Source: Escherichia coli phage vB_EcoS_Ace
Strand: one strand, 5' to 3'
Sequence record: MT833283.1
Length of the DNA stretch: 64,000 nt
The notes under the pieces are model-generated. The model was not told the DNA's origin and searched no databases. It was given only the letters and a program-made list of their open reading frames with translations. This document shows, one piece after another, positions 4,498 through 40,267 of the stretch (within the stretch, counting starts at the first letter, position 1; each line of letters opens with the position of its first letter). A program made the translations under genes and the position numbers.

Positions 4498-6828
4498 TTA
4501 TAGGTTACAACCACCGGATGCACAACCTGCTGCTTCTTCACCAGCTCCACCACCATTTTCAGTGTTGAAGTTAGCGTAGTACCAAGTTTTCCAACCGTAC
4601 TTAACAGCAGTCATGAAATCACGAACTACTACTGGACCAGGAATGATTTCATTCTCAAACTTGGTGTAGTCATAGTACATATTCGTACTGATAGACTGAC
4701 TGAAAAATTTCTGCATGGTTGCTACCCATTTGATCCACTCGATACGATCTACATCATAAGCCAGTTTATAGCTCATTAATATATCCCAATCGGTTGCACC
4801 TGGAGCAATTGCAATTACTTTATTCACTGCACTACCCTTGATAGATACAATCTTACGAGGTGGTTCAATAGAGTTAGTAACACCTAGCAGTACAGAGGAA
4901 CTTTCACCCGGCATCTGAGCAGTCAGAACAGAGTTACGCATACCGTATTTCAGGATATCTGCACGCAGAGATTCCCAATCCATTTCTAGACCTACGGTTA
5001 CCAGTTCATCAACAGTTTTCTTGTACGTGTCGATTACCAGAGTTCCTTTGGATGGCTTAGTACGATTAAACCAGTCACATGCACCTTGTTCTTTAGCCAG
5101 ACGTACAGATGCTTTGTGCAGGAAGTAAGACAGTTTTTCAGCTTCACGGTGAATCCAGTTACGAGCTTCAACACCTTCGTAAGCCAAACCTTCTGCTGCC
5201 ATTGCACCTGCTGCGTTCATCAGGCCAATACCAACGTTTCGACGTTTCTTAGCCGTGTATTCCATAGTTGGGAATGGGTAATCCTGAATCTCGATGATTG
5301 TATCAACTAATTTCAGAAGGATGTAGCAAGTTTTCTCCCATTCAGCCAGAGATTCCATGCGGCCTAGTACAACACCACCTAAGTTACACAGAGATACTTC
5401 ACCAATATCTTCTGGACGCATATCGTCTAACTGATCTTGGGTTTTATACAGTTCCGTAATGTGATGGAATGGACGGGTTGGCTGAGTAATTTCAACACAA
5501 AGGTTGGTCATACGAATCGGGTCAAGGAAGTTACCATGACGGTTAGATTCACCAATGTGATGAGCATACATACGCCCTGTTTCCATACGGATACGTAACC
5601 AAGTATCTAGGATTTCTTTTGCAGAGATTCTAGGAGCTGCTGGAATTGTTTTTCCTTCGTGGTCGGTCTTTGTAAGAGATGCCACACGTTTCTCCGCTGC
5701 CACGTAGATTTCTTCAAACTTAGCCTCATCTTCACCATAAAACGCTTCATGAACTTCTGGTGCGTAGAAGTAGGACATTAGCGTAATATCTTCGTTTTTC
5801 AGGTAACGTTTTAACAGAAGGTTGTTAAAGCTCAGAGAATAATCCATCTTATCGATTTTATTCTCGTCTGTAGCACGTTGCTGCTTAACCTGCATCAACT
5901 GAATGATTTCAGGATCGAAGTATGGATAAGACACAGTAGCAGAACCGCCACGGGTTTGCTGAGTGTTAGCTTTTACTGAACGGTCAATGTGTCTATAATA
6001 TGGCAGTTTTCCGGAATGCGGGAATGCCCCATTTCGCACCGGATCAGCAATTGATCGGCTTTCAAGATGATACCCGATTCCCGCTCTGGCTGCGACCATT
6101 TTGAAGACGATATGCTCGGCTGTGTCGATTGAATCGAGGGTATCAGTACTATCAACAAGACAACAAGAAGCAAAACCGCGGTCGCTGCTCCTAAGACCCA
6201 CGAGAGGTGGAGTAGGAACGTTGATTTTGTGGAGCGACATTGCATTGTAGAGGTCGATTGCATCTAGAATTGTCCAGTTAGGTTGAGATAACATCGCCAT
6301 TGCCATACCCATGTAAGCAAACTGCGGGGTTTCATAAATTTCACCAGTTGCAATATTACGACGGGAATACTTGTCGAAGAACTGTTTCAGCCCACCACTG
6401 GTGAATAAACGATCGCGATCATGATCAATAACTTGATTCAGAGCATCAAACTGATCATCGCTAATCCATGCACTCATGTCTTCCCAAGCTCCAACACTAA
6501 CCATATGATCGTGGAAGAAACGCAGAGAAGGAGGCTCGAAGGAGTCATATAGACGTTTACGCATCTGCGCAAGACGTAATTCCTTAGCTGGCACATCATA
6601 TGCTGGGTTATCTTTGATAAGACCTTCAGCGGCTTTAATTAACGCATCCATTAGGGTGTCGGAGTCTACAACACCTTTAGGTAGAGTTTTTTGAGCAGCC
6701 ATAGTGATGGATGACCAGCTTACATCAACTGTTTTGCAGCCATACACTGCCCAACCATTGAGTTTTTCAGGAGCAAAGTCTTCTACAGTACCGTCACGTT
6801 TGATTACTTTTTCTATGCGATGGCTCAT
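4498..6828 (-). CDS. nrdA: Ribonucleotide reductase class Ia large subunit
   Basis: ATP-cone start MSHRIEKVIKRDGT, catalytic-site CNLG block, C-terminal Cys pair; track ORF extends to 6933 but the internal ATG at 6828 has an AGGAAA-type RBS and starts the ATP-cone. Confidence 0.9.
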   Translation of the reverse strand: MSHRIEKVIKRDGTVEDFAPEKLNGWAVYGCKTVDVSWSSITMAAQKTLPKGVVDSDTLMDALIKAAEGLIKDNPAYDVPAKELRLAQMRKRLYDSFEPPSLRFFHDHMVSVGAWEDMSAWISDDQFDALNQVIDHDRDRLFTSGGLKQFFDKYSRRNIATGEIYETPQFAYMGMAMAMLSQPNWTILDAIDLYNAMSLHKINVPTPPLVGLRSSDRGFASCCLVDSTDTLDSIDTAEHIVFKMVAARAGIGYHLESRSIADPVRNGAFPHSGKLPYYRHIDRSVKANTQQTRGGSATVSYPYFDPEIIQLMQVKQQRATDENKIDKMDYSLSFNNLLLKRYLKNEDITLMSYFYAPEVHEAFYGEDEAKFEEIYVAAEKRVASLTKTDHEGKTIPAAPRISAKEILDTWLRIRMETGRMYAHHIGESNRHGNFLDPIRMTNLCVEITQPTRPFHHITELYKTQDQLDDMRPEDIGEVSLCNLGGVVLGRMESLAEWEKTCYILLKLVDTIIEIQDYPFPTMEYTAKKRRNVGIGLMNAAGAMAAEGLAYEGVEARNWIHREAEKLSYFLHKASVRLAKEQGACDWFNRTKPSKGTLVIDTYKKTVDELVTVGLEMDWESLRADILKYGMRNSVLTAQMPGESSSVLLGVTNSIEPPRKIVSIKGSAVNKVIAIAPGATDWDILMSYKLAYDVDRIEWIKWVATMQKFFSQSISTNMYYDYTKFENEIIPGPVVVRDFMTAVKYGWKTWYYANFNTENGGGAGEEAAGCASGGCNL

Positions 6829-6949
6829 TTGGCTTTCCTTTTTGTAGTTATCAGGATTTAGGAAATAGTTTACTTTATTCTCAGTCATTTGGCAAATAAA
6901 ATTTTCTGATAGAAAAGGCCCGAGTATTTTCATACCCAGGCCTTCTATA

Positions 6950-7192
6950 TTACCAGTCTAGTTTTTCGGCTTGATTAATTACTTTTGCTTTCGCATTCGC
7001 CCTCAGAAGAATATCTACTGATGTTGAAAGTTCATTATAATTAAAAGGCCGATTTGGATTAGAGGCTACAATTTTCCACGCTAGGGTAGTCTTAGGACTT
7101 TCTTCCCCTTCCTTACGTGTAATCATATTAGCAGCACTCAGTGAAGTACGGTGGATCTTAGTTTTGCGGTGCAGATGTACGACGTTTCCCAT
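6950..7192 (-). CDS. Hypothetical protein (80 aa)
   Basis: ORF packed between phoH and nrdA on the same strand. Confidence 0.4.
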   Translation of the reverse strand: MGNVVHLHRKTKIHRTSLSAANMITRKEGEESPKTTLAWKIVASNPNRPFNYNELSTSVDILLRANAKAKVINQAEKLDW

Positions 7193-7193
7193 A

Positions 7194-7955
7194 TTACACC
7201 TTCCCCATATCCTTAAAGATATCGTAGAATGCTTTAGACTCTGGTGAGCGAACGTTGTCGATCAGTTCGATCATAGAGAAAGGAGAGTTTTCATACTTCT
7301 CATAGACTTCCATAAGAAGTGCTAGACCTGAATCACCCTTGATGTCTTTCTGAGCTATATCTCCACAGATAATTAAACGACAATCTTGTCCTACACGAGT
7401 CAAAAGACAGATCATTGCTTCAACGGAGATATTCTGAGCTTCATCGACAATTACATAGGAGTTGTTGAAAGTTCGGCCACGGGCATGTTCGATAGCCAGG
7501 AATTTGATTTTCTGACGTTCGACATATCCTTTGTAGGCATGATCACCGATTGCCCATTTCATACCATCGGCTATTGGTTCCAACCAAGGCTCTAGCTTTT
7601 CTGCTAGATCACCTGGGAGCATACCAAGAGATTTACCTAGAGGTTCGTTCGGACGCACGAGGATCACTTGCTCAATATCTGAGTGAATGTCTACGAGTTC
7701 CTGAGCTGCAAGAACGGATGGAATAAAGGTTTTACCAGTACCTGGTTCACCTATACCCACAGTCACTGTGTTGTTCTTGATCATATTGATATATGATTTT
7801 TGCTCACGGTTTTTACCAACTAGGGATTTAGCAACTGGATTGGCGTAATCACCAGAGAAATCTGCTTGAATTACGTTACTCTCGTACTTGTTGCCACGCT
7901 TTCTTGAACCATTGCGGTTCTCTCTTTTTTGACGTGCTTTTCCCATAAATAACAC
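7194..7955 (-). CDS. phoH: PhoH-like ATPase
   Basis: 253 aa; Walker A GEPGTGKTF and the conserved PhoH core that follows. Confidence 0.85.
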   Translation of the reverse strand: MLFMGKARQKRENRNGSRKRGNKYESNVIQADFSGDYANPVAKSLVGKNREQKSYINMIKNNTVTVGIGEPGTGKTFIPSVLAAQELVDIHSDIEQVILVRPNEPLGKSLGMLPGDLAEKLEPWLEPIADGMKWAIGDHAYKGYVERQKIKFLAIEHARGRTFNNSYVIVDEAQNISVEAMICLLTRVGQDCRLIICGDIAQKDIKGDSGLALLMEVYEKYENSPFSMIELIDNVRSPESKAFYDIFKDMGKV

Positions 7956-8019
7956 TCCTATAGTGTACTTCGCTAACAGAGGATCAACAAAAAGATCTTG
8001 TTTATCAACTTACAAATAT

Positions 8020-8048
8020 ATTATACCAATATATACGGGAGAAAGCAA
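8020..8048 (-). promoter_or_regulatory. Early promoter TTGCTT-N17-TATAAT driving phoH-nrdA
   Basis: Reverse strand TTGCTT, 17-nt spacer, TATAAT in the divergent intergenic region. Confidence 0.55.
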
Positions 8049-8240
8049 CTACAATTTTAAATAAGCCTATGATATTGCATTTAAATAAAAAATTTGCTTG
8101 CTTTTATTGGGAAATGTATGGTACTAGATAATCATTTTATATCGCGTACACGGGTGCGTGATTATACTATTTTTAGTAGAGGTTGGCAAATAAAATTTTT
8201 TGACTCAGATCAATTTACAGAATGTTATAGTAAAATATTG

Positions 8241-8269
8241 TTGACATCCGCCTTCGAATGAGTTATAAT
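8241..8269 (+). promoter_or_regulatory. Consensus sigma70 promoter TTGACA-N17-TATAAT upstream of nrdD
   Basis: Exact consensus -35 and -10 hexamers with 17-nt spacing, followed by GAAGGAGAG RBS and ATG at 8299. Confidence 0.7.
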
Positions 8270-8298
8270 AGTAGTCTTAGTTAGAGAAGGAGAGTATA

Positions 8299-10173
8299 AT
8301 GAATCGCAATGAAGAACTAAAGTATAAAGGAATGCAGTCCTTGATTCGAAACTGCAAAGAAATTATCGAAGGTTCAGCAGATGAAGAGCTGCTGTTTAAT
8401 AATGCCAATAAGCCCTCAGAACGTTTCCCTACACAAAGGGATATGCTTGCAGGGGAATTGAGTAAATATCTGATTCTGGAAGAAATGCCAATCCAGATTC
8501 GAAATGCTCACATGATTGGTGATATTCACTTCCATGATGCTGATTACGCTGCATTAGGTATGACTAACTGTTGCCTGGTTGCTTTGGAAGATATGTTGAA
8601 AAACGGTATGAAGGTTGGTAATGCTGAAATCAGTACGCCAAACTCCATTACTACTGCGGCTGCTATTACAGCTCAGATTATTACTCAGGTTAGCTCCCAT
8701 CAATATGGTGGTACTTCTGTAGACCGATTAGATGAAGTACTGGCTCCTTATGTTCGTAAGTCTTATGATAAGAATCATGCGTTTGCAAAACGTTGGACTA
8801 AGGATGAAGCCAAAGCATCTGTAATGGCTACGGAAATGACTGAGAAAGAAGTTTACGATGCCTGTCAGGGCCTGGAGTATGAAATCAATACGATGTTCAA
8901 CTCTAATGGTCAAAGTCCGTTTATTACCTTTGGGTTTGGTCTAGGAACTTCTTGGGAAGCACGTCTTGTACAGAAAGCAATCCTAGAAGTGCGTATGGAT
9001 GGTTTGGGTATCAATAAACGTACAGCTATCTTCCCTAAACTGGTATTTGTTTTGCGTGATGGCGTAAACATGAAACCTGGTGATGTTAACTATGATATCA
9101 AGAAGTTAGCTATGAAATGTACTGCTGAACGTATGTATCCTGACTACATCAGTTATGATAAGGTTGTAGAAGTTACGGGAGACTACAAAGTCTCTATGGG
9201 CTGTCGTTCATTCCTGGCTGCTGCGGAAGATGGTGAAACTTCTGGTCGTAACAACTTAGGCGTTGTTTCCGTAAACCTTCCTCGAATCGCTATCGAAGCG
9301 GAAGGAAATATTGATCTATTCTTCGATCTACTTGAGCTGCGTGTGGATACCGCGTTAAAAGCATTGGAGTGGAGGGTTGATCGCTTAAAATACATTCAAG
9401 CTAAAGCTGCGCCCATCCTCTATATGTCAGGAGCCTTTGGATTACGTCTGGGGCCAGATGAATATGTATTTGATCATTTCTACAAGCGTGCTTCCGTATC
9501 TCTAGGATATATTGGTTGCCACGAAATGTTGCAGCTCATGTTTGGTAAAGATGTAGATACAATGTCTGAGTCTTGTATCAAGTTCGTTCAACGTGTGCTA
9601 CAATATATGCGTGATCGTGCTGATCAGAAGAAGGAAGAGACTCAGTTAGGTTATAGTCTGTATGCTACACCATCTGAATCTCTGTGTGATCGCTTCTGTC
9701 GTCTAGACCGTGAGTACTTCCCAGAGCATGAGGATATTCTGGCTAAAGGATATTACACTAACTCCCATCACCTTGATGTAGAACGTAAGGTTGCTCCAAA
9801 TGTGAAATTTGATTATGAGTCTAACTTTACTCCTATTGCTTCTGGTGGGTGCATTTCCTACGTGGAATTACCTGACATGAAGAAATTCCCAGATGCCCTA
9901 GAATGGGTAATTAACTATGCTGCAAGTAAAGTTCACTACTTTGGTATTAATACTCCAGTTGATTCTTGTGGTGAGTGTGGATTCTTAGGCGAAACAATTG
10001 CTTCTGAAGATGGATTTAAATGCCCAATTTGTGGCAACCATGATCCTGAGACTCTTGAGGTAACACGTCGTGTTTGTGGGTACCTTGGTAATCCAGGTGC
10101 ACGCCCATTTAACCCAGGTAAACAGCATGAGGTTATGGGACGAATCAAGCATGCAGATGTAAGAGCTAAATAA
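8299..10173 (+). CDS. nrdD: Anaerobic ribonucleoside-triphosphate reductase (class III)
   Basis: 624 aa; C-terminal Zn ribbon CGECG..CPICG and glycyl-radical motif RVCGYLG. Confidence 0.9.
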   Translation: MNRNEELKYKGMQSLIRNCKEIIEGSADEELLFNNANKPSERFPTQRDMLAGELSKYLILEEMPIQIRNAHMIGDIHFHDADYAALGMTNCCLVALEDMLKNGMKVGNAEISTPNSITTAAAITAQIITQVSSHQYGGTSVDRLDEVLAPYVRKSYDKNHAFAKRWTKDEAKASVMATEMTEKEVYDACQGLEYEINTMFNSNGQSPFITFGFGLGTSWEARLVQKAILEVRMDGLGINKRTAIFPKLVFVLRDGVNMKPGDVNYDIKKLAMKCTAERMYPDYISYDKVVEVTGDYKVSMGCRSFLAAAEDGETSGRNNLGVVSVNLPRIAIEAEGNIDLFFDLLELRVDTALKALEWRVDRLKYIQAKAAPILYMSGAFGLRLGPDEYVFDHFYKRASVSLGYIGCHEMLQLMFGKDVDTMSESCIKFVQRVLQYMRDRADQKKEETQLGYSLYATPSESLCDRFCRLDREYFPEHEDILAKGYYTNSHHLDVERKVAPNVKFDYESNFTPIASGGCISYVELPDMKKFPDALEWVINYAASKVHYFGINTPVDSCGECGFLGETIASEDGFKCPICGNHDPETLEVTRRVCGYLGNPGARPFNPGKQHEVMGRIKHADVRAK

Positions 10174-34931: not shown

Positions 34932-34936
34932 TAATA

Positions 34937-34970
34937 AACCCCAGTGGACAATCCACTGGGGTTTTCTTTT
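34937..34970. terminator. Bidirectional terminator at the convergence of early and late gene blocks
   Basis: CCCCAGTGG-ACAAT-CCACTGGGG hairpin with an A-run upstream and T-run downstream. Confidence 0.65.
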
Positions 34971-36735
34971 ACTTAGTGAGTAGTTGTTTTACTAATTCCT
35001 TGAGTTCATCAATTTCTTGCCTCTGTTGCTCAACAATCCCATTAAGTTCGTTAACAGCGCTAACTAGAAGAGCAGAAACACCACCATAACTAACACCAAG
35101 ATAACCGTCTTGGCTTACTTGGTATACAGCTTCAGGTAATACTTTCTGGAGATCCTGAGCAATAATACCTGCTTCCATAGAATAATCTTTGCTTTCAGGG
35201 TCATCAATATTAGTTCGTTTCTGGTAAGTATAGCCGCATAACAGCTTAACCTTACTTAGAGAATCTTCGATCTTAGTAAGATTAGACTTAGTTCTAATAT
35301 CAGAAACGTTAATCCAGTTAGATGCTCTAGCTCCCCCATCACTATGGAAATAGAATCTGGAAGCACCTGTCATTATATCCAGTTCAGAAGTGCCATCCCC
35401 CCATAGGATACCATCAACGTTACAAGCGTATCCCTTTCCAGGAATAGTTACTTTGGCAATACCTACAGCTACATCAGTAGTGTTACCATCTACGCTAACA
35501 GCTACAGGCCTATAAGACCAACTAGATAGAGCACCCCCATTAATTTTACAACCATAACCATACGACCAATCCCCTCCTTTATAGTCAGGCAGGTATACTG
35601 AGTCGAAAATTACTTGCTGACGTGTGCCAAGAGATAAGTTATTACGGGCAGTATTAACATCTGTACCTCCTGTACCTCCCGAAGCAATAGGTAGAGGTTT
35701 TCTAATAGCAGCAGACTTATCGTAGACACCCCAATCTCCTGCAGCATATACAAAGAAATAGGTATCTTTATCCGGAGCCCAAAGCATTGATTGTTCCCCC
35801 GCTCTATCTACCTGGTCTACTAAGAGATTCTCTCTTGCCTTAGCCACTGTAGTAGCTCCTGTCCCTCCATTTGTAATAGGAACGGTAGACTGACCGTTAA
35901 ATTGTTTTTGCCACGGCAACCAGTTACCAGTACCGTTTAGTATAGTAAGCCATGAGCTTCCAGATTTTCCTACCGCCTTCAATATACCGTATTGGGCGAA
36001 GCCATCAATATCTGTACTATGACAGTGAAAATTAAAAGTCCACCAATCCTCGTCTACTGGAGGACCAAAGGTAATTAGGTTACCTGAAGAGTAGTAACCA
36101 CTTTGCCCGGTAGCACCAATAAAACCAAGAACATTACTGTTAGGAGGAATAGGTACAGCAGTAGCCCCTACAGGAACATCTAGATTTTTTCTTGCTGTTT
36201 TAGCATCAGAAGCCCCTGTTCCACCGAACTGCACTTTCATGGCCTGGACGGCAGCGGTAGAACTATTGATTAATCCAAAGTCTCCGCTATTATAAACGAA
36301 TAAAGAATATTTTCCATCAGGAGACGTAATAAAGGTACCATTATCCTGCTGTCTTAAACGATCTATTTGTAAAGCTGTTTTTGCCTCTAATAAGGTGCTA
36401 GCACCTGTACCACCCTGAGCAATAGTAATAGCCTTAGTCAGTGCGTTTAATTCTGTAATATCGTTATTAGCACCTTTTGCCGCCTTCGTACCTAGGTTAG
36501 TGTTAATACCGCCAATAGCAGTATTGATATTACCTATTGATTCGTTAATACTATTAATATATGCGTCAGTAGCAGTCTTATCAGTAGTATATTTTGTAAG
36601 CTGTAGATATTTAGAGGTTAGTACAACAGCACCAGCCTCCCCATCAACAGAGAAAACACCAGCAACCGCCGCATCTCTGTTAACAACAACATAGGGGGCC
36701 ATAGCCCCACTTTTTGGCATTAATTGTCTAGACAT
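34969..36735 (-). CDS. L-shaped tail fibre protein B-like, with C-terminal intramolecular chaperone domain
   Basis: 588 aa; four GGTGA.T...AR.NL repeats; C-terminal block (…LLCGYTYQKRTNIDD…GIIAQDL…) alignable with the C-terminus of the next ORF. Confidence 0.6.
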   Translation of the reverse strand: MSRQLMPKSGAMAPYVVVNRDAAVAGVFSVDGEAGAVVLTSKYLQLTKYTTDKTATDAYINSINESIGNINTAIGGINTNLGTKAAKGANNDITELNALTKAITIAQGGTGASTLLEAKTALQIDRLRQQDNGTFITSPDGKYSLFVYNSGDFGLINSSTAAVQAMKVQFGGTGASDAKTARKNLDVPVGATAVPIPPNSNVLGFIGATGQSGYYSSGNLITFGPPVDEDWWTFNFHCHSTDIDGFAQYGILKAVGKSGSSWLTILNGTGNWLPWQKQFNGQSTVPITNGGTGATTVAKARENLLVDQVDRAGEQSMLWAPDKDTYFFVYAAGDWGVYDKSAAIRKPLPIASGGTGGTDVNTARNNLSLGTRQQVIFDSVYLPDYKGGDWSYGYGCKINGGALSSWSYRPVAVSVDGNTTDVAVGIAKVTIPGKGYACNVDGILWGDGTSELDIMTGASRFYFHSDGGARASNWINVSDIRTKSNLTKIEDSLSKVKLLCGYTYQKRTNIDDPESKDYSMEAGIIAQDLQKVLPEAVYQVSQDGYLGVSYGGVSALLVSAVNELNGIVEQQRQEIDELKELVKQLLTK

Positions 36736-36782
36736 TTTATTACCTTTATAGGGGCTTTCATAAGCCCCCTATTATACTTTTT

Positions 36783-39700
36783 TTATACTGGAGTTAAGGC
36801 AGCTACAACTTGTTTGAGTTGTTCTAACTCTTGTTCTAAAGTATTCATTTTATTACCCATGTACACCATAGCACAAGCCATATCCGTTAGAATAACGTTA
36901 CTATCAAGAGCAAGTGTGTCATCAGCTCTATCGGTTTCAATTTGACGATCCACATATTCGTTACCATCCGTGTCAACTCCAATTACGTCTTCAAAAACTG
37001 GAGAGCCAGGTACGATTTTTACATATTGAAGATCTATTTTTGCAAGATCCTGGGCTATAAGACCATAACGTTGAGTATCGCCCCACTTATATTTAAACAT
37101 AGTAGGCAACCACTGCATAACACGGTCATAACTTTCCTTTCCATCTGTGTAAATAATTTCTTTCTTTAAGTCACGGTCTGAAGTTGGGTTTTTTGCAAAA
37201 TCATAACCAACTCCCCACATATCCCCGGGCGCGTTTGCCCATGTTCCTAAACTACCATCTACGTTAAATTCAAATCCTCTATGTTTATCGTTATCACCTA
37301 GCAGCTTGAGTATTGTCCTGGACCATCCAGCGGCGCCCGGGGACAACATACCAATTGCGAAACGTATGTTATAACCGTTTGGAGTTGAAGTGCCTCCCGC
37401 GACTACCGGACTGAATGATGCGTTATTGTTAGTTGTACTCACTGAATTGAATGGAATTCCATTACCACTATCGTACTGCTCAATACCCCAACCATGAATG
37501 TTACCCACAGTGCCAGCATTAAATGCACGCGCTTTATGGTAGCCTGTTGGATAGAAATCAAAGTCCGCCACATCAATACTAGGACTATAAACTCTTAAAC
37601 GATGACATTTAATCTTGTCTGAACCAGATCTAACAGCACCGGATATTGACATATCATTATACCAGTTATACCTAGTAAAGTTAGCCCAATCATCCAAAGG
37701 AACACTAGCCCCGGCATAAAGCTCAAGATTGTTTCGCTCACCTCCTTCCATTGTAAAAGCGTAGTTAGCACCAATTTTTATTTTCTGAGCACTAAATTGA
37801 CCATTTTCGTCAAACTGGTAGAAGGCTGTTTTATCGGTGGTTGAGTTTGTAGTCCTTATTGTTGTTTTCGCTACACCAGATTGAAGTTCGTTGTAAATAG
37901 AGGAATAAGAAATTAAGTTTCTAGAAGCATCGTGATTCCTCATATATAACAGACCAGAATTGAATCCATTATATAAGCTAGCAGCAACTTCGGCAAAGCT
38001 AGGTGTATTAGTTTCTCCTAATTCTATGTTAGCCCTTGCACCTGCTGCATTCGTCGCCCCTGTACCTCCATTATTAATAGCTAGAATTCCCTGGGTATCA
38101 TTATTTAAATCAGGCTTATTTGCTGAACCGTATAGAATATTAGTATGGATAGTAGGATTTTCACTATCTAATTGATTATCATTTATAGTCCCGACAAAAA
38201 CAATACCACTAGAGTATTGGGGGCAAATAAATGAGTGAGTATCTGCAGTTTTAGAGTAAAATCCTGCAGAATACGCCGGTAGCCCACCTATTCCTATGTC
38301 GTTTCTATAGTAGCCAGAACCAAAAGCTCTCATAGCTTTAAAAAGAGATACTAAATCAGGCTCGTTTAAAGTGAGTCCTGCACCACCTAAGCCAAAAGCA
38401 CCACGAAGTAAAACCTCACCATTAATGCCATCCCAAACATTCTTAGTAACAACGTTACCTAGAGAAATATTACCACTCTCGTCTGGGCGAATAGTTCCGT
38501 TAACCATTGCTACATAAGGAAGTTTAATAGCTCCGGTATCATCAGCAGGACCAATTCCATTCACAGTAGTGATATAAGGAATCTGTTCCTTAATAGCACC
38601 GCCGTCTTCTTCTCCCTTAGTAGGTGCACGAAAAGCCTGCCCTTGCATCATATCTGGTAGGCGGAATGTGGTAGAACCGTCACCAGTGGAGAAGTAGAGA
38701 GTTGCACCGGCTTGCCATTCAGCTTCTGAAACAGAAGGAATTAGACCAGCTTCGATGGCTTCCCAAGTATCAGGATAGTCAACACGAAGTACTTCACGGC
38801 CATCAGCAGGTAGAACACCAGGGTAACCAACACCTGAATCCTTGTTATAAGGGAACCAAGTAACTTCACCCAACCATAGAGAAGGGTTACCACCCGGAAG
38901 TGTAATCTGTACGTTACCTGCATCATCTGCATGAACGTTGTTGATTGATACGAGTTTTTGCTCGGTTTCTACTAACTCTAGGACAGGAGCTTCAGCAGTA
39001 CCAGCAACTTTATACCAACCGTACTTTGAATCAGTTTGATTCCAGACTAGAACCTTTTCGTCTAGAACACGGTTTGCAACATCAGCATCAGCTTCTGCTT
39101 TCGTCTTATAAACTTTGATAAAACCAGAAATATCTACTTTATCAAGTTTACCATCAACAACCTGAGTAGCACGATCTGCCTCAGCTTTAGCACGATCTGC
39201 CTCAGTAGTAGCATCGATAGCTTTATCGCCAGCTTCAGTAGCAGAACCAGCAGCATTAGTTTCAGAAATCTTAGCGTTTAGTTCTGATTGCTTAGCAGCA
39301 GCAGCATGCTCACCAGCAGTTGTTGCAGCAGCATCGGCTCCTTCTTTAGCAGTTTCTGCACCAGTTTGTGCAGTTTCAGCGGCTACTTGAGCTTGTTGAG
39401 CAGCAGTTTTAGCTTGTTCGGCTAGTTCTCTACTTCTTTCAGCATTTTGAGCAGCTAACTGAGCCGCATCTTTGTGTGTGCCGGCTTCTGTAGCAGATGC
39501 AGCGGATTCTTCAGCGCTAGCCTTAGATAATCCAGCTTGTCTCTCAGATTCCGTAGCAGAAGTAGCTGCTTGAGTAGCAGAAGCTTCAGAAGAATCAGCG
39601 TAAATAGCAGCTCTATTTTCTGAGTCTCTAGCGTTAGTTTCAGATAATTTTGCTGCAATTTCAGAATCTTTTGCTGCCGCAGCAGAAGCAGCAGAGGCTT

Positions 39701-39845
39701 CTACAGCAGCAGTTAATTCACCAGCAGTAATAGAACTAATAGAATTACCTAAAACTACTGTATATTTAGGATACTTACTAGCAGTAGTTGTAGTGTCATC
39801 TATGTTCAGAATCTGCTGTACAATAATTTTAGTTTTAAGTGCCAT
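36783..39845 (-). CDS. L-shaped tail fibre protein A-like (pb1-like), with C-terminal intramolecular chaperone domain
   Basis: 1020 aa; Ala/Glu/Lys-rich coiled-coil N-terminal region, beta-rich Gly/Asn-rich body, C-terminal chaperone-like block (…DRDLKKEI…YGLIAQDLAK…). Confidence 0.65.
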   Translation of the reverse strand: MALKTKIIVQQILNIDDTTTTASKYPKYTVVLGNSISSITAGELTAAVEASAASAAAAKDSEIAAKLSETNARDSENRAAIYADSSEASATQAATSATESERQAGLSKASAEESAASATEAGTHKDAAQLAAQNAERSRELAEQAKTAAQQAQVAAETAQTGAETAKEGADAAATTAGEHAAAAKQSELNAKISETNAAGSATEAGDKAIDATTEADRAKAEADRATQVVDGKLDKVDISGFIKVYKTKAEADADVANRVLDEKVLVWNQTDSKYGWYKVAGTAEAPVLELVETEQKLVSINNVHADDAGNVQITLPGGNPSLWLGEVTWFPYNKDSGVGYPGVLPADGREVLRVDYPDTWEAIEAGLIPSVSEAEWQAGATLYFSTGDGSTTFRLPDMMQGQAFRAPTKGEEDGGAIKEQIPYITTVNGIGPADDTGAIKLPYVAMVNGTIRPDESGNISLGNVVTKNVWDGINGEVLLRGAFGLGGAGLTLNEPDLVSLFKAMRAFGSGYYRNDIGIGGLPAYSAGFYSKTADTHSFICPQYSSGIVFVGTINDNQLDSENPTIHTNILYGSANKPDLNNDTQGILAINNGGTGATNAAGARANIELGETNTPSFAEVAASLYNGFNSGLLYMRNHDASRNLISYSSIYNELQSGVAKTTIRTTNSTTDKTAFYQFDENGQFSAQKIKIGANYAFTMEGGERNNLELYAGASVPLDDWANFTRYNWYNDMSISGAVRSGSDKIKCHRLRVYSPSIDVADFDFYPTGYHKARAFNAGTVGNIHGWGIEQYDSGNGIPFNSVSTTNNNASFSPVVAGGTSTPNGYNIRFAIGMLSPGAAGWSRTILKLLGDNDKHRGFEFNVDGSLGTWANAPGDMWGVGYDFAKNPTSDRDLKKEIIYTDGKESYDRVMQWLPTMFKYKWGDTQRYGLIAQDLAKIDLQYVKIVPGSPVFEDVIGVDTDGNEYVDRQIETDRADDTLALDSNVILTDMACAMVYMGNKMNTLEQELEQLKQVVAALTPV

Positions 39846-40267
39846 TATTGAGTTACTCCATCGCTGATGTATACTTTACCTTCCATAATACGGAAAGAAC
39901 TGACTTCAGAGCCAATTACATCACGAGTCATTAGGATATCATAATAACCAGCAAAACGTTGTCTTGGGTTATACTTATCACGTTCTTTAGATGCTTTTTC
40001 ACCAATATTAGTAACGTCTGCAACGGAAAGACTAATTGCAGCAGCACCTTGAGCAGCATCAATAACACGAGTTTTAAAGTTAGCTAGAACCTCGGCGTTC
40101 TCATCTAAACTAGATTTAATAGTTCCTCGGAGTGAATACCCCGTCAAGTTAACAGGAACTTCTGTTGGTGGATATACACTATCATCAACATCCATAAATT
40201 GCATGATAAGACCATAAGGTACTTTTTCATCAACAACAATATCAATAACTCGGTTTTCTGTACTCAT
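39845..40267 (-). CDS. Tail collar protein (T5 p132-like)
   Basis: 140 aa (the length recalled for T5 p132), between pb4-like and tail-fibre genes. Confidence 0.5.

What the first reader, a model, noticed from the sequence alone, without database searches (positions are those of the whole stretch)
34969..39845. Two consecutive L-shaped tail-fibre genes, each with a self-cleaving chaperone-like C-terminus
The 1020-aa and 588-aa proteins both end in a related ~120-aa block typical of intramolecular chaperone (S74-like) domains. Both contain the short repeat GGTGA(S/T)..(A/K)(A/T)AR.NL (four copies in the smaller protein). Classical T5 has a single, longer pb1; a two-fibre arrangement is known from branched-fibre T5 relatives that recognise two O-antigen types. 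This is the probable host-range determinant and a likely site of horizontal exchange.
Basis: partly seen in the sequence, partly recalled or inferred. Interest (0 to 1): 0.6.

Follow-up and report, generated by a model that had tools for sequence, protein, structure and literature searches.

The report
Two-gene branched T5-like tail fibre
These are the two lateral tail-fibre genes (ltfA and ltfB) of a T5-like E. coli phage already in GenBank as vB_EcoS_Ace, each ending in a self-cleaving folding domain; the arrangement is well described, so the finding is correct but ordinary.

Summary
Two minus-strand ORFs of 1020 aa (36783-39845) and 588 aa (34969-36735) sit directly downstream of ltfC and pb4 in a T5-like genome. 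Both end in a Pfam Peptidase_S74 intramolecular-chaperone domain. Each keeps the Ser-x4-Lys cleavage motif, which aligns with S1264/K1269 of T5 pb1. The GGTG motif occurs once in the large protein and four times in the small one.

Both proteins are 100% identical to the "tail fiber protein" entries QNR52187.1 and QNR52196.1 of Escherichia coli phage vB_EcoS_Ace. The DNA is 97% identical to BASEL phage IrmaTschudi.

The architecture matches the LtfA/LtfB branched fibre described for DT57C in 2016:
- a T5-like N-terminal anchor on LtfA;
- a region of LtfA related to SU10 gp12 / phiEco32 gp14;
- an LtfB N-terminus 70% identical to SU10 gp13;
- an S74 domain on each protein.

The distal modules assort independently among relatives, so the locus is a recombination hot spot.

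New details are minor. LtfB contains an 86-aa internal duplication that flanks two unrelated knob domains. Homology breakpoints cluster at the GGTG motifs. IrmaTschudi carries a nonsense mutation in ltfA.

Receptor specificity, self-cleavage and branching are inferred, not shown. Verdict: already known, low interest.

The parts
39845..40267 (-). ltfC (140 aa), the collar protein that anchors the lateral fibre. It is context rather than part of the finding. Its stop codon overlaps the ltfA start (TAATG).
   Evidence: Pfam PF23926 LtfC, 57.6 bits. 95% identical to DT57C LtfC. TAATG overlap.
36783..39845 (-). ltfA, 1020 aa (108.8 kDa). The predicted mature protein is residues 1-888 (93.7 kDa).
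   Evidence: ORF. Exact match to QNR52187.1 of phage vB_EcoS_Ace. PHROG tail-fibre families.
39156..39845 (-). LtfA aa 1-230: N-terminal anchor plus an Ala-rich helical shaft.
   Evidence: 86% identical to DT57C LtfA and 49% over 226 aa to T5 pb1. Aligned to the solved chain 8hqz_d over residues 1-442.
38520..39155 (-). LtfA aa 231-442: conserved module related to SU10 gp12 / phiEco32 gp14, containing a collar-like motif. It is the inferred docking site for LtfB.
   Evidence: 90-99% identical in all two-fibre relatives and absent from T5 pb1. 42% identical to SU10 gp12 residues 239-461, E 5e-45; PDB 7z47_D, E 1e-42. Pfam Collar hit is sub-threshold, 17.9 bits against a cut-off of 24.
38070..38519 (-). 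LtfA aa 443-592: variable shaft segment and recombination patch.
   Evidence: 85% identical to IrmaTschudi but 98-99% to EH7 and EscoHU1. 122 of the 144 nt differences from IrmaTschudi lie in nt 1200-1799 of the gene. AF2 confidence is low here.
38025..38069 (-). LtfA GGTG connector motif (aa 593-607, GGTGATNAAGARANI).
   Evidence: The motif is conserved in distal-module homologues.
37182..38024 (-). LtfA aa 608-888: beta-rich distal domain, the presumed receptor-binding domain.
   Evidence: No Pfam family. AF2 pLDDT roughly 50-90, mostly above 70. Best PDB fold match is the T5 pb1 C-terminus 4uw8_A, E 7.6e-5. 98-99% identical in IrmaTschudi, EH1 and EH7; absent from DT57C, JNwz02 and TrudiGerster.
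36786..37181 (-). LtfA aa 889-1020: S74 intramolecular-chaperone domain. Predicted cleavage is at T888|S889, with K894 as the paired lysine.
   Evidence: Pfam PF13884. The Ser, Asp and Lys are invariant. Aligns with T5 pb1 S1264/K1269. Fold match to MyRF ICA 7dc3.
36736..36782 (-). ltfA-ltfB spacer: 8-bp GC-rich hairpin (AGGGGCTT-ATGA-AAGCCCCT) followed by an AAGG ribosome-binding site.
   Evidence: Hairpins with different stem sequences sit at the same place in IrmaTschudi, EscoHU1, DT57C, JNwz02, EH7, TrudiGerster and SU10.
34969..36735 (-). ltfB, 588 aa (62.5 kDa). The predicted mature protein is residues 1-477 (50.2 kDa).
   Evidence: ORF. Exact match to QNR52196.1 of phage vB_EcoS_Ace.
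36595..36735 (-). LtfB aa 1-47: conserved N-terminal adaptor peptide, inferred to dock on LtfA.
   Evidence: At least 88% identical in the two-fibre relatives compared. 70% identical to the SU10 gp13 N-terminus. Found in 235 phage records, all T5-like or Kuravirus-like among those listed. Disordered in the monomer AF2 model.
36175..36432 (-). LtfB aa 102-187: repeat unit 1 (GGTG motif, small beta domain, GGTG motif).
   Evidence: Gapless alignment with aa 284-369 scores 155, against 34.7 +/- 6.6 in shuffles (z 18). AF2 secondary structure.
35887..36174 (-). LtfB aa 188-283: knob domain 1, with a collar-like SGYYSSG...PP motif.
   Evidence: AF2 pLDDT about 82-93 over aa 191-280. No Pfam family. 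The profile aligns the motif with the collar-like segment of DT57C LtfA.
35629..35886 (-). LtfB aa 284-369: repeat unit 2.
35305..35628 (-). LtfB aa 370-477: distal knob domain 2, the presumed receptor-binding tip.
   Evidence: AF2 beta-sandwich. No Pfam family. Unrelated in sequence to knob 1 (z -0.5). 88% identical in JNwz02, 71% in TrudiGerster, at most 32% in EscoHU1 and EH7.
34972..35304 (-). LtfB aa 478-588: S74 intramolecular-chaperone domain. Predicted cleavage is at V477|S478, with K483 as the paired lysine.
34936..34964 (.). Bidirectional intrinsic terminator closing the fibre operon and the convergent early genes.
   Evidence: 13-bp stem with a T-run on both strands. T5 annotates a bidirectional terminator at the equivalent position.

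Best explanation
The locus encodes the DT57C-type, two-protein, branched L-shaped lateral tail fibre of a T5-like siphovirus (Epseptimavirus-like; the deposited phage vB_EcoS_Ace).

Proposed mechanism, with each step marked as shown or inferred:

1. ltfC, ltfA and ltfB are co-directional. The ltfC stop and ltfA start overlap. ltfB has its own ribosome-binding site, and a bidirectional terminator follows it. These features are shown in the sequence; co-transcription is inferred.

2. Each fibre protein trimerises from its C-terminus with the help of its own S74 intramolecular-chaperone domain. That domain then cuts itself off at Ser889 (LtfA) or Ser478 (LtfB) using a Ser-Lys dyad, leaving mature proteins of about 94 and 50 kDa. 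The domain and catalytic residues are shown; cleavage is inferred from the family.

3. The LtfA N-terminus inserts into the LtfC collar on the tail. This is inferred from 86-99% identity to the part of DT57C LtfA seen by cryo-EM.

4. The conserved 47-aa N-terminus of LtfB docks on the conserved gp12/gp14-like module of LtfA (aa 231-442), giving a branched fibre. This is inferred from co-conservation of both modules in T5-like phages and Kuraviruses, and from DT57C genetics.

5. The variable distal domains (LtfA aa 608-888; LtfB aa 188-283 and/or 370-477) bind different surface polysaccharides, most likely O-antigens, reversibly and without enzymatic activity. That binding lets the central fibre reach its outer-membrane protein receptor. 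This is inferred.

6. The distal modules are exchanged between phages by recombination, with junctions preferentially at the conserved GGTG connector motifs and at the chaperone boundary. The mosaic pattern is shown.
For: Gene order pb4-ltfC-ltfA-ltfB and domain content.

LtfA aa 1-442 aligns with DT57C LtfA (PDB 8hqz_d) at E 1e-236, and aa 232-442 with SU10 gp12 (7z47_D) at E 1e-42.

The LtfB N-terminus is 89% identical to DT57C LtfB and 70% to SU10 gp13. SU10 gp12 and gp13 are adjacent genes and form one fibre.

T5 pb1 is a single 1396-aa protein and lacks the aa 231-442 module.

S74 evidence.

No separate chaperone gene lies downstream; a terminator follows ltfB directly.

No enzymatic domain was found. 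Pfam and PHROGs return only tail-fibre families. Fold matches are to fibres: pyocin R1/R2, Mu, T4 gp34 and T5 pb1.

Mosaicism: EH7 shares LtfA at 95-99% from aa 231 onward (84% over aa 1-230) but not the LtfB distal part (25-61%). JNwz02 and TrudiGerster share LtfB (71-95%) but not the LtfA receptor-binding domain.

Breakpoints: megablast tracts end at LtfB aa 113, 174, 183, 191, 191, 249 and 297. 27 of 47 change-points lie within 15 aa of a GGTG motif, against 23% expected.

Literature:
- DT57C genetics: LtfB depends on LtfA, and the two recognise different O-antigens (PMC4728585).
- DT57C cryo-EM found no LtfB density on the tail core (PMC10713586).
- Phage Ace is reported as highly specific for O157:H7, with some Citrobacter freundii and Shigella sonnei hosts (PMC9512901).
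Against: Nothing contradicts the model, but several steps are not shown for this phage.
- Self-cleavage, branching and receptor identity were not tested.
- The docking site on LtfA is only a homology argument. The aa 231-442 module also contains a collar-like (T4 gp12-like) motif, which in other fibres is read as a receptor-binding domain.
- In SU10 the homologous pair is described as proximal and distal parts of one fibre with an elbow, not explicitly as a branch.
- The AF2 models are monomers of proteins that fold as intertwined trimers. Confidence is moderate (pLDDT 75.9 and 64.8) and TM-scores are low.
- The breakpoint statistics use related sequences and an alignment anchored on the conserved motif, so the P value is overstated.
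- The hhalign comparison of the two families shares one chimeric sequence, P0028.
- The nearest relatives of the LtfA receptor-binding domain are Salmonella phages, so no link to the O157 antigen can be drawn from sequence.
Confidence: 0.85

Rival explanations
1. LtfA and LtfB form a linear, end-to-end fibre with a proximal and a distal half, as described for the SU10 long tail fibre, rather than a branch. In that case only LtfB carries the working receptor-binding tip.
For: The LtfA aa 223-442 / LtfB N-terminus pair is homologous to SU10 gp12 / gp13, which the SU10 paper calls the proximal and distal proteins of one fibre with an elbow. IrisVonRoten has a proximal fibre without an S74 domain plus a distal fibre.
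Against: Beyond the shared module, LtfA continues for 578 aa. That stretch includes its own variable distal domain with a T5-pb1-like fold and its own complete S74 chaperone with invariant Ser and Lys. This is the mark of a free C-terminal tip. The LtfA distal module varies and recombines independently, like a receptor-binding domain. DT57C genetics assign separate O-antigen specificities to LtfA and LtfB.
Confidence: 0.07
2. The two proteins form independent fibres, with LtfB attached to the tail by some site other than LtfA.
For: No physical data exist for this phage. Weak low-contour densities near the DT57C tail tip were tentatively assigned to LtfB ends.
Against: Among the phages searched, the LtfB N-terminus matched only the corresponding fibre gene of two-fibre T5-like phages and of Kuraviruses. 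In the phages compared, the gp12-like module of LtfA accompanies LtfB, and T5, which has no LtfB, lacks that module. In DT57C no LtfB density was seen on the tail core, and ltfA mutants lose LtfB function.
Confidence: 0.05
3. One or both proteins are enzymatic tailspikes (O-antigen depolymerase or deacetylase) rather than simple binding fibres.
For: The distal domains have no Pfam family. The LtfA distal model gives weak Foldseek hits to glycoside hydrolases (E 0.016-0.04, probability 0.2-0.25).
Against: Those hits are not significant. The top matches are non-enzymatic fibres. The domains are small (about 100-280 aa) and lack a beta-helix. T5 and DT57C fibres bind without degrading.
Confidence: 0.03
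4. The 588-aa ORF is a frameshifted or decayed fragment of a single long pb1-like gene.
For: None found. IrmaTschudi does show that this locus can acquire disruptive mutations.
Against: ltfA ends after a complete S74 domain. ltfB is in another frame, with its own ribosome-binding site, a conserved N-terminus and its own S74 domain. Every relative examined that has an LtfB keeps the two-gene layout, and 235 phage records hold the LtfB N-terminus.
Confidence: 0.01

Closest known systems
LtfA/LtfB branched lateral tail fibre of T5-like phages DT57C and DT571/2 (Golomidova 2016, PMC4728585; Ayala 2023, PMC10713586; PDB 8hqz)
   Same: Same gene order, ltfC-ltfA-ltfB. LtfA aa 1-442 is 86-90% identical, the first 53 aa of LtfB are 89% identical, and LtfC is 95% identical. 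Both fibre proteins end in pfam13884.
   Different: The distal parts are unrelated: LtfA from aa 443 and LtfB from about aa 126. LtfB is shorter (588 aa against 788). There are no long ltfA-ltfB direct DNA repeats; the longest is 28 nt at 82%. The A-B fusion deletions seen in DT57C relatives are therefore less likely here. The genus differs (Epseptimavirus-like against Tequintavirus).
Escherichia phage IrmaTschudi (Bas28, MZ501076) lateral-fibre locus
   Same: 97% DNA identity over the whole finding. LtfB is 99.7% identical, and the LtfA receptor-binding domain and chaperone are 99-100% identical.
   Different: IrmaTschudi ltfA has a GAA-to-TAA change at codon 680 and is annotated as two CDS. 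It also has a divergent patch at aa 415-592.
T5 pb1 (Ltf), PDB 4uw7/4uw8
   Same: The N-terminal anchor is 49% identical. The C-terminal receptor-binding domain plus intramolecular chaperone has the same fold class. The Ser-x4-Lys motif aligns with S1264/K1269.
   Different: T5 has a single 1396-aa protein with no gp12-like module, no LtfB partner and no GGTG motifs. T5 pb1 binds polymannose O-antigen (record annotation).
Kuravirus long tail fibre: SU10 gp12 + gp13, phiEco32 gp14 + gp15 (PMC9509320, PDB 7z47)
   Same: LtfA aa 223-442 is 42% identical to gp12 residues 239-461. LtfB aa 1-47 is 70% identical to the gp13 N-terminus. The genes are adjacent with an intergenic hairpin. gp13 ends in an S74-type SDxxxK domain. 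gp12 contains GGTG motifs.
   Different: The host is a podovirus with a different virion anchor. No C-terminal SDxxxK motif was found in gp12. The rest of gp13 is unrelated to LtfB.
Peptidase S74 / intramolecular-chaperone domains (K1F endosialidase 3gw6, GA-1 gp12 3gud, S16 gp37 6f45, MyRF ICA 7dc3)
   Same: Pfam membership, C-terminal position, Ser-Lys dyad, terminal long helix and fold matches.
   Different: The LtfA copy carries an insertion of about 27 aa before the terminal helix. Cleavage has not been demonstrated here.
T-shaped dual-RBD tail fibres (IrisVonRoten Gp24, Gordonclarkvirinae Gp10; bioRxiv 10.1101/2024.09.12.612763)
   Same: A distal fibre protein with two globular domains in one chain, the last one T5-like and followed by a chaperone domain, attached to a proximal fibre. 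LtfB likewise has two knobs plus a chaperone.
   Different: There is no significant sequence similarity between LtfB and IrisVonRoten Gp24. The N-terminal adaptor differs, and IrisVonRoten's proximal fibre lacks an S74 domain. The T-shape of this LtfB is untested.

Membership tests
DT57C-type LtfA/LtfB branched lateral tail fibre | Two adjacent fibre genes directly downstream of ltfC, in the order ltfC-ltfA-ltfB. | tested here: met
   The same layout is found in IrmaTschudi, EscoHU1, DT57C, JNwz02, EH7 and TrudiGerster.
DT57C-type LtfA/LtfB branched lateral tail fibre | LtfA N-terminus homologous to the T5 pb1 N-terminus (collar attachment). | tested here: met
   49% over 226 aa to T5 pb1 and 86% to DT57C LtfA. 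Aligned to 8hqz_d over residues 1-442.
DT57C-type LtfA/LtfB branched lateral tail fibre | LtfA region homologous to phiEco32 gp14 / SU10 gp12. | tested here: met
   LtfA aa 223-442 against SU10 gp12 residues 239-461: 42% identity, E 5e-45. 7z47_D, E 1e-42.
DT57C-type LtfA/LtfB branched lateral tail fibre | The first ~45 aa of LtfB homologous to phiEco32 gp15 / SU10 gp13. | tested here: met
   70% identity over 47 aa to SU10 and phiEco32.
DT57C-type LtfA/LtfB branched lateral tail fibre | Both proteins end in a pfam13884 autocleavable chaperone domain. | tested here: met
DT57C-type LtfA/LtfB branched lateral tail fibre | LtfB is physically attached to the virion through LtfA, giving a branched fibre. 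| not testable with these tools
   Only co-conservation of the two modules supports this. It needs microscopy or virion proteomics of ltfA mutants.
DT57C-type LtfA/LtfB branched lateral tail fibre | The two proteins recognise different O-antigens. | not testable with these tools
   The distal domains are unrelated to each other and assort independently. The host report for phage Ace is. No binding data exist.
Peptidase S74 / intramolecular-chaperone domain | Pfam PF13884 match at or above the gathering score, located at the C-terminus. | tested here: met
   27.8 and 47.3 bits against a cut-off of 22.
Peptidase S74 / intramolecular-chaperone domain | Conserved catalytic Ser and Lys (S-x4-K) at the start of the domain. 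| tested here: met
   S889/K894 and S478/K483. They are invariant or at least 90% conserved in relatives. They align with T5 pb1 S1264/K1269. That S1264 is the T5 cleavage site is taken from my own knowledge of Garcia-Doval et al. 2015.
Peptidase S74 / intramolecular-chaperone domain | Fold like the solved chaperone domains, with a terminal helix. | tested here: met
Peptidase S74 / intramolecular-chaperone domain | Autoproteolytic release after trimer folding. | not testable with these tools
   Needs protein work. The predicted products are 93.7 + 15.1 kDa and 50.2 + 12.4 kDa.
Enzymatic tailspike / depolymerase | A recognisable hydrolase, lyase or esterase domain, or a beta-helix. | tested here: not met
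T-shaped dual-RBD fibre (IrisVonRoten Gp24 type) | Sequence homology to Gp24, including a Gp12-like RBD1 (SSF88874 / Pfam Collar). | tested here: not met
   LtfB has no BLASTP hit to Gp24 at E < 1e-3. There is no Collar hit in LtfB knob 1. Only a short collar-like motif aligns at profile level.

The most novel reading that the evidence does not exclude
LtfB may itself be a dual-receptor fibre. An 86-aa cassette (GGTG motif, small beta domain, GGTG motif) has been duplicated, and the two copies flank two unrelated knob domains, aa 188-283 and aa 370-477. Each lateral fibre would then present three different binding domains: the LtfA tip, a lateral LtfB knob and the LtfB tip. More generally, the GGTG connector may be the standard junction at which such knobs are inserted, duplicated and swapped between T5-like, T1-like, Kuravirus and pyocin-type fibres. 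That would make it a usable splice point for host-range engineering.
Probability: 0.25. Interest if true: 0.4.

Novelty: already known. Interest (0 to 1): 0.15.

Why it matters
This locus is the likely host-range determinant of a phage being developed for biocontrol of E. coli O157:H7. Knowing that the fibre has two (possibly three) independently exchangeable binding modules, and where the module borders lie, helps in several ways:
- predicting or engineering host range;
- explaining why close relatives infect Salmonella or K-12;
- recognising laboratory-acquired fibre defects, such as the IrmaTschudi nonsense mutation.

It does not open a new biological question. The architecture, the chaperone domains and the modular exchange have all been published for close relatives.

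Tried and rejected
- Direct pairwise similarity of the two C-termini was not significant. The relationship was established through Pfam, profiles and fold instead.
- PDB sequence searches with the LtfA distal profile gave only a weak chaperone hit (6f45, E 0.093). T5 pb1 appeared only in the fold searches.
- Searching the LtfB N-terminus against solved structures found no docking-interface structure. The only hits were to the GGTG / GANxDIT motif region.
- Pfam scans of the isolated knob and distal domains found nothing except a sub-threshold Collar hit in LtfA aa 231-442.
- The idea that LtfB equals the published T-shaped Gp24 fibre was rejected by sequence.
- RNAalifold on the intergenic hairpins gave only weak alignment-based covariation, -0.55 kcal/mol, because the hairpins do not align in register. 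The window hairpin alone is not exceptional against shuffles (z -1.5).
- The promoter scan found no excess over shuffles (25 against 21 +/- 5), so no internal promoter is claimed.
- Attempts to infer the receptor from relatives' hosts failed. The same modules occur in phages isolated on Salmonella, on K-12 and on unspecified E. coli.
- The original description of phage Ace is not in the searchable library.

Full report
**What is there.** The window holds two consecutive minus-strand ORFs at exactly the stated coordinates: 36783-39845 (1020 aa) and 34969-36735 (588 aa). Upstream on the same strand lie a 140-aa LtfC collar protein (Pfam PF23926) and the pb4 straight-fibre protein, which carries four pb4-specific Pfam domains. 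Downstream, a 13-bp-stem bidirectional terminator at 34936-34964 separates the fibre genes from convergent genes for dUTPase and flap endonuclease. T5 annotates the same arrangement. The ltfC stop overlaps the ltfA start as TAATG. The two fibre ORFs are in different frames and are separated by 47 nt carrying a hairpin and an AAGG ribosome-binding site.

**Identity of the sequence.** Both proteins are letter-for-letter identical to QNR52187.1 and QNR52196.1, each annotated "tail fiber protein" in Escherichia coli phage vB_EcoS_Ace. The best DNA match in the phage collection is BASEL phage IrmaTschudi, at 97% over the whole finding. The rest of the window is about 97-98% identical to Epseptimavirus genomes. 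The genes are therefore already public and annotated. A later paper describes phage Ace as highly specific for O157:H7, with some Citrobacter freundii and Shigella sonnei hosts (PMC9512901).

**Checking the observation: C-termini.**
- Pfam Peptidase_S74 passes its gathering score in both proteins: LtfA aa 889-937 at 27.8 bits and LtfB aa 478-538 at 47.3 bits, against a cut-off of 22.
- Each domain starts with S-D-x-x-x-K: S889/K894 in LtfA and S478/K483 in LtfB.
- These residues are invariant in 55 relatives of the LtfA distal part and at least 90% conserved in 60 LtfB relatives.
- They align with S1264/K1269 of T5 pb1. That this is the known cleavage site is from my own knowledge of the T5 pb1 structure paper.
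- The two C-terminal blocks are not similar to each other pairwise. They are joined by profile comparison (hhalign probability 100%, with the caveat that one chimeric sequence is in both alignments) and by fold.
- The AF2 model of LtfA aa 443-1020 has the T5 pb1 C-terminus with its chaperone (4uw8_A, E 7.6e-5) as its best PDB match, followed by MyRF ICA.
- The LtfB family profile hits S16 gp37, MyRF and GA-1 chaperone chains by sequence.

**Checking the observation: the GGTG motif.** It occurs once in LtfA (aa 593) and four times in LtfB (aa 108, 171, 290, 353). Four copies never arose in 20000 shuffles.

**Anatomy of LtfA.**
- aa 1-442 is 84-100% identical in the two-fibre relatives compared. 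It aligns end to end with the DT57C LtfA chain of PDB 8hqz.
- The first 230 aa are 49% identical to T5 pb1.
- aa 223-442 is 42% identical to SU10 gp12. This module is absent from T5 pb1. It contains a sub-threshold phage-collar motif.
- Next come a variable shaft (aa 443-592), the GGTG connector, a beta-rich distal domain with no Pfam family (aa 608-888) and the chaperone domain (aa 889-1020).

**Anatomy of LtfB.**
- A 47-aa N-terminus is at least 88% identical in the T5-like two-fibre phages compared and 70% identical to Kuravirus gp13.
- It is followed by a helix.
- Then comes an 86-aa cassette present twice: aa 102-187 and aa 284-369 align without gaps, z 18. Each copy is a GGTG motif with a helix, a five-strand mini-domain, and a second GGTG motif with a helix.
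- The cassettes flank two mutually unrelated knob domains, aa 188-283 and aa 370-477, before the chaperone domain (aa 478-588).
- No enzymatic family or fold was found. The matches are to phage and pyocin fibres.

**How it most likely works.** The locus meets every sequence criterion used to define the branched LtfA/LtfB fibre of DT57C (PMC4728585):
- gene order;
- a T5-like anchor;
- a gp14-like region in LtfA;
- a gp15-like N-terminus in LtfB;
- pfam13884 on both proteins.

By homology, LtfA trimers plug into the LtfC collar. LtfB trimers dock through their N-terminal adaptor on the gp12-like module of LtfA. Each chaperone domain drives C-to-N trimer folding and then cuts itself off, leaving proteins of about 94 and 50 kDa. 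The two or three distal domains then bind surface polysaccharide.

Indirect support for docking:
- The adaptor and the partner module are conserved together in two unrelated phage groups.
- They are missing together from T5.
- DT57C cryo-EM saw no LtfB on the tail core.

Cleavage, branching and receptor identity remain inferences for this phage.

**Horizontal exchange.**
- Segment-by-segment comparison shows independent assortment. EH7 shares the LtfA distal domain (98%) and chaperone (95%), but its LtfB diverges after about aa 125.
- JNwz02 and TrudiGerster share LtfB (71-93% beyond the N-terminus) but have unrelated LtfA distal domains.
- The LtfA distal module has 40-48% relatives in lateral fibres carried on ~50-kb contigs (including phages FritzSarasin, egaa and atuna) and on ~60-kb contigs.
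- Against IrmaTschudi, 122 of 144 nucleotide differences in ltfA lie in one patch, and the last amino-acid difference of that patch falls at aa 592, immediately before the GGTG motif at aa 593.
- Megablast homology tracts from relatives end at LtfB aa 113, 174, 183, 191, 191, 249 and 297. Six of these seven are within or just after a GGTG motif.
- In a change-point analysis, 27 of 47 strong breakpoints lie within 15 aa of a GGTG motif, against 23% expected. Ten more lie at the chaperone boundary. The sequences are related and the alignment is anchored on the motif, so this is suggestive rather than proof.
- Unlike DT57C, ltfA and ltfB here share no long DNA repeat.

**Comparison with what is known, and novelty.**
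- The arrangement was published in 2016, extended structurally in 2023, and noted for the BASEL T5-like phages in 2021. The exact proteins are in GenBank.
- A 2025 preprint proposes dual receptor-binding domains in a single distal fibre chain for IrisVonRoten and Kuraviruses.
- LtfB here is not homologous to that Gp24. Its two-knob layout makes an analogous reading possible; I rate it about 25% likely.
Interest is low.

Noticed in passing
window 37806-37808 (ltfA codon 680); L001 (IrmaTschudi MZ501076) locus 5815-8877: In the closest relative, IrmaTschudi, ltfA codon 680 is TAA instead of GAA. Its record therefore annotates two CDS (679 and 322 aa), and the fibre would lack its distal domain and chaperone. 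The window has the intact gene. IrmaTschudi was isolated on E. coli K-12, which lacks O-antigen and does not need lateral fibres, so this may be a tolerated or laboratory-selected defect.
   Followed up: yes
window 38070-38645 (LtfA aa ~401-592): 122 of the 144 nucleotide differences from IrmaTschudi in ltfA fall in nt 1200-1799 of the gene. The amino-acid differences run from aa 415 to aa 592, ending immediately before the GGTG motif at aa 593. Across aa 443-600 the window is 98-99% identical to EH7 and EscoHU1 instead. This looks like a recent recombination patch.
   Followed up: yes
window 36736-36782; same position in L001-L006 and L008: The ltfA-ltfB spacer holds a GC-rich hairpin in every two-fibre T5-like phage examined, and also between SU10 gp12 and gp13. 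The stem sequences differ and most lack a T-run. Its role is unknown; candidates are mRNA 3' stabiliser, processing site or weak attenuator.
   Followed up: partly
window 35629-36432 (LtfB aa 102-369): LtfB has an internal duplication of an 86-aa cassette, aa 102-187 against aa 284-369. The alignment is gapless (score 155 against 35 +/- 7 in shuffles). This accounts for the regular 63/119/63 spacing of the four GGTG motifs.
   Followed up: yes
window 34969-36735, and alignment A1: Homology breakpoints between LtfB and its relatives cluster at the GGTG motifs and at the start of the chaperone domain. This suggests that these conserved connectors are the junctions at which modules are exchanged.
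   Followed up: partly
window 39843-39847: The ltfC stop and ltfA start overlap as TAATG, which suggests translational coupling of the collar protein and the fibre.
   Followed up: no
whole window; The nearest genomes are classified as Epseptimavirus, whereas the paper using phage Ace calls it a Tequintavirus. The Ace genome itself appears to be absent from the phage DNA collection searched (best hit 97%), although its proteins are in the protein collection.
   Followed up: no
window 36433-36474 (LtfB aa 88-101) and relatives: A second conserved motif, GAN(N/S)DIT(E/S)L(N/S)xLT, precedes the first GGTG motif. It recurs in SU10 gp12 (7z47_D) and in the tail fibre gp47 of PDB 8vbx. It seems to be part of a widespread fibre connector that Pfam does not model.
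   Followed up: partly
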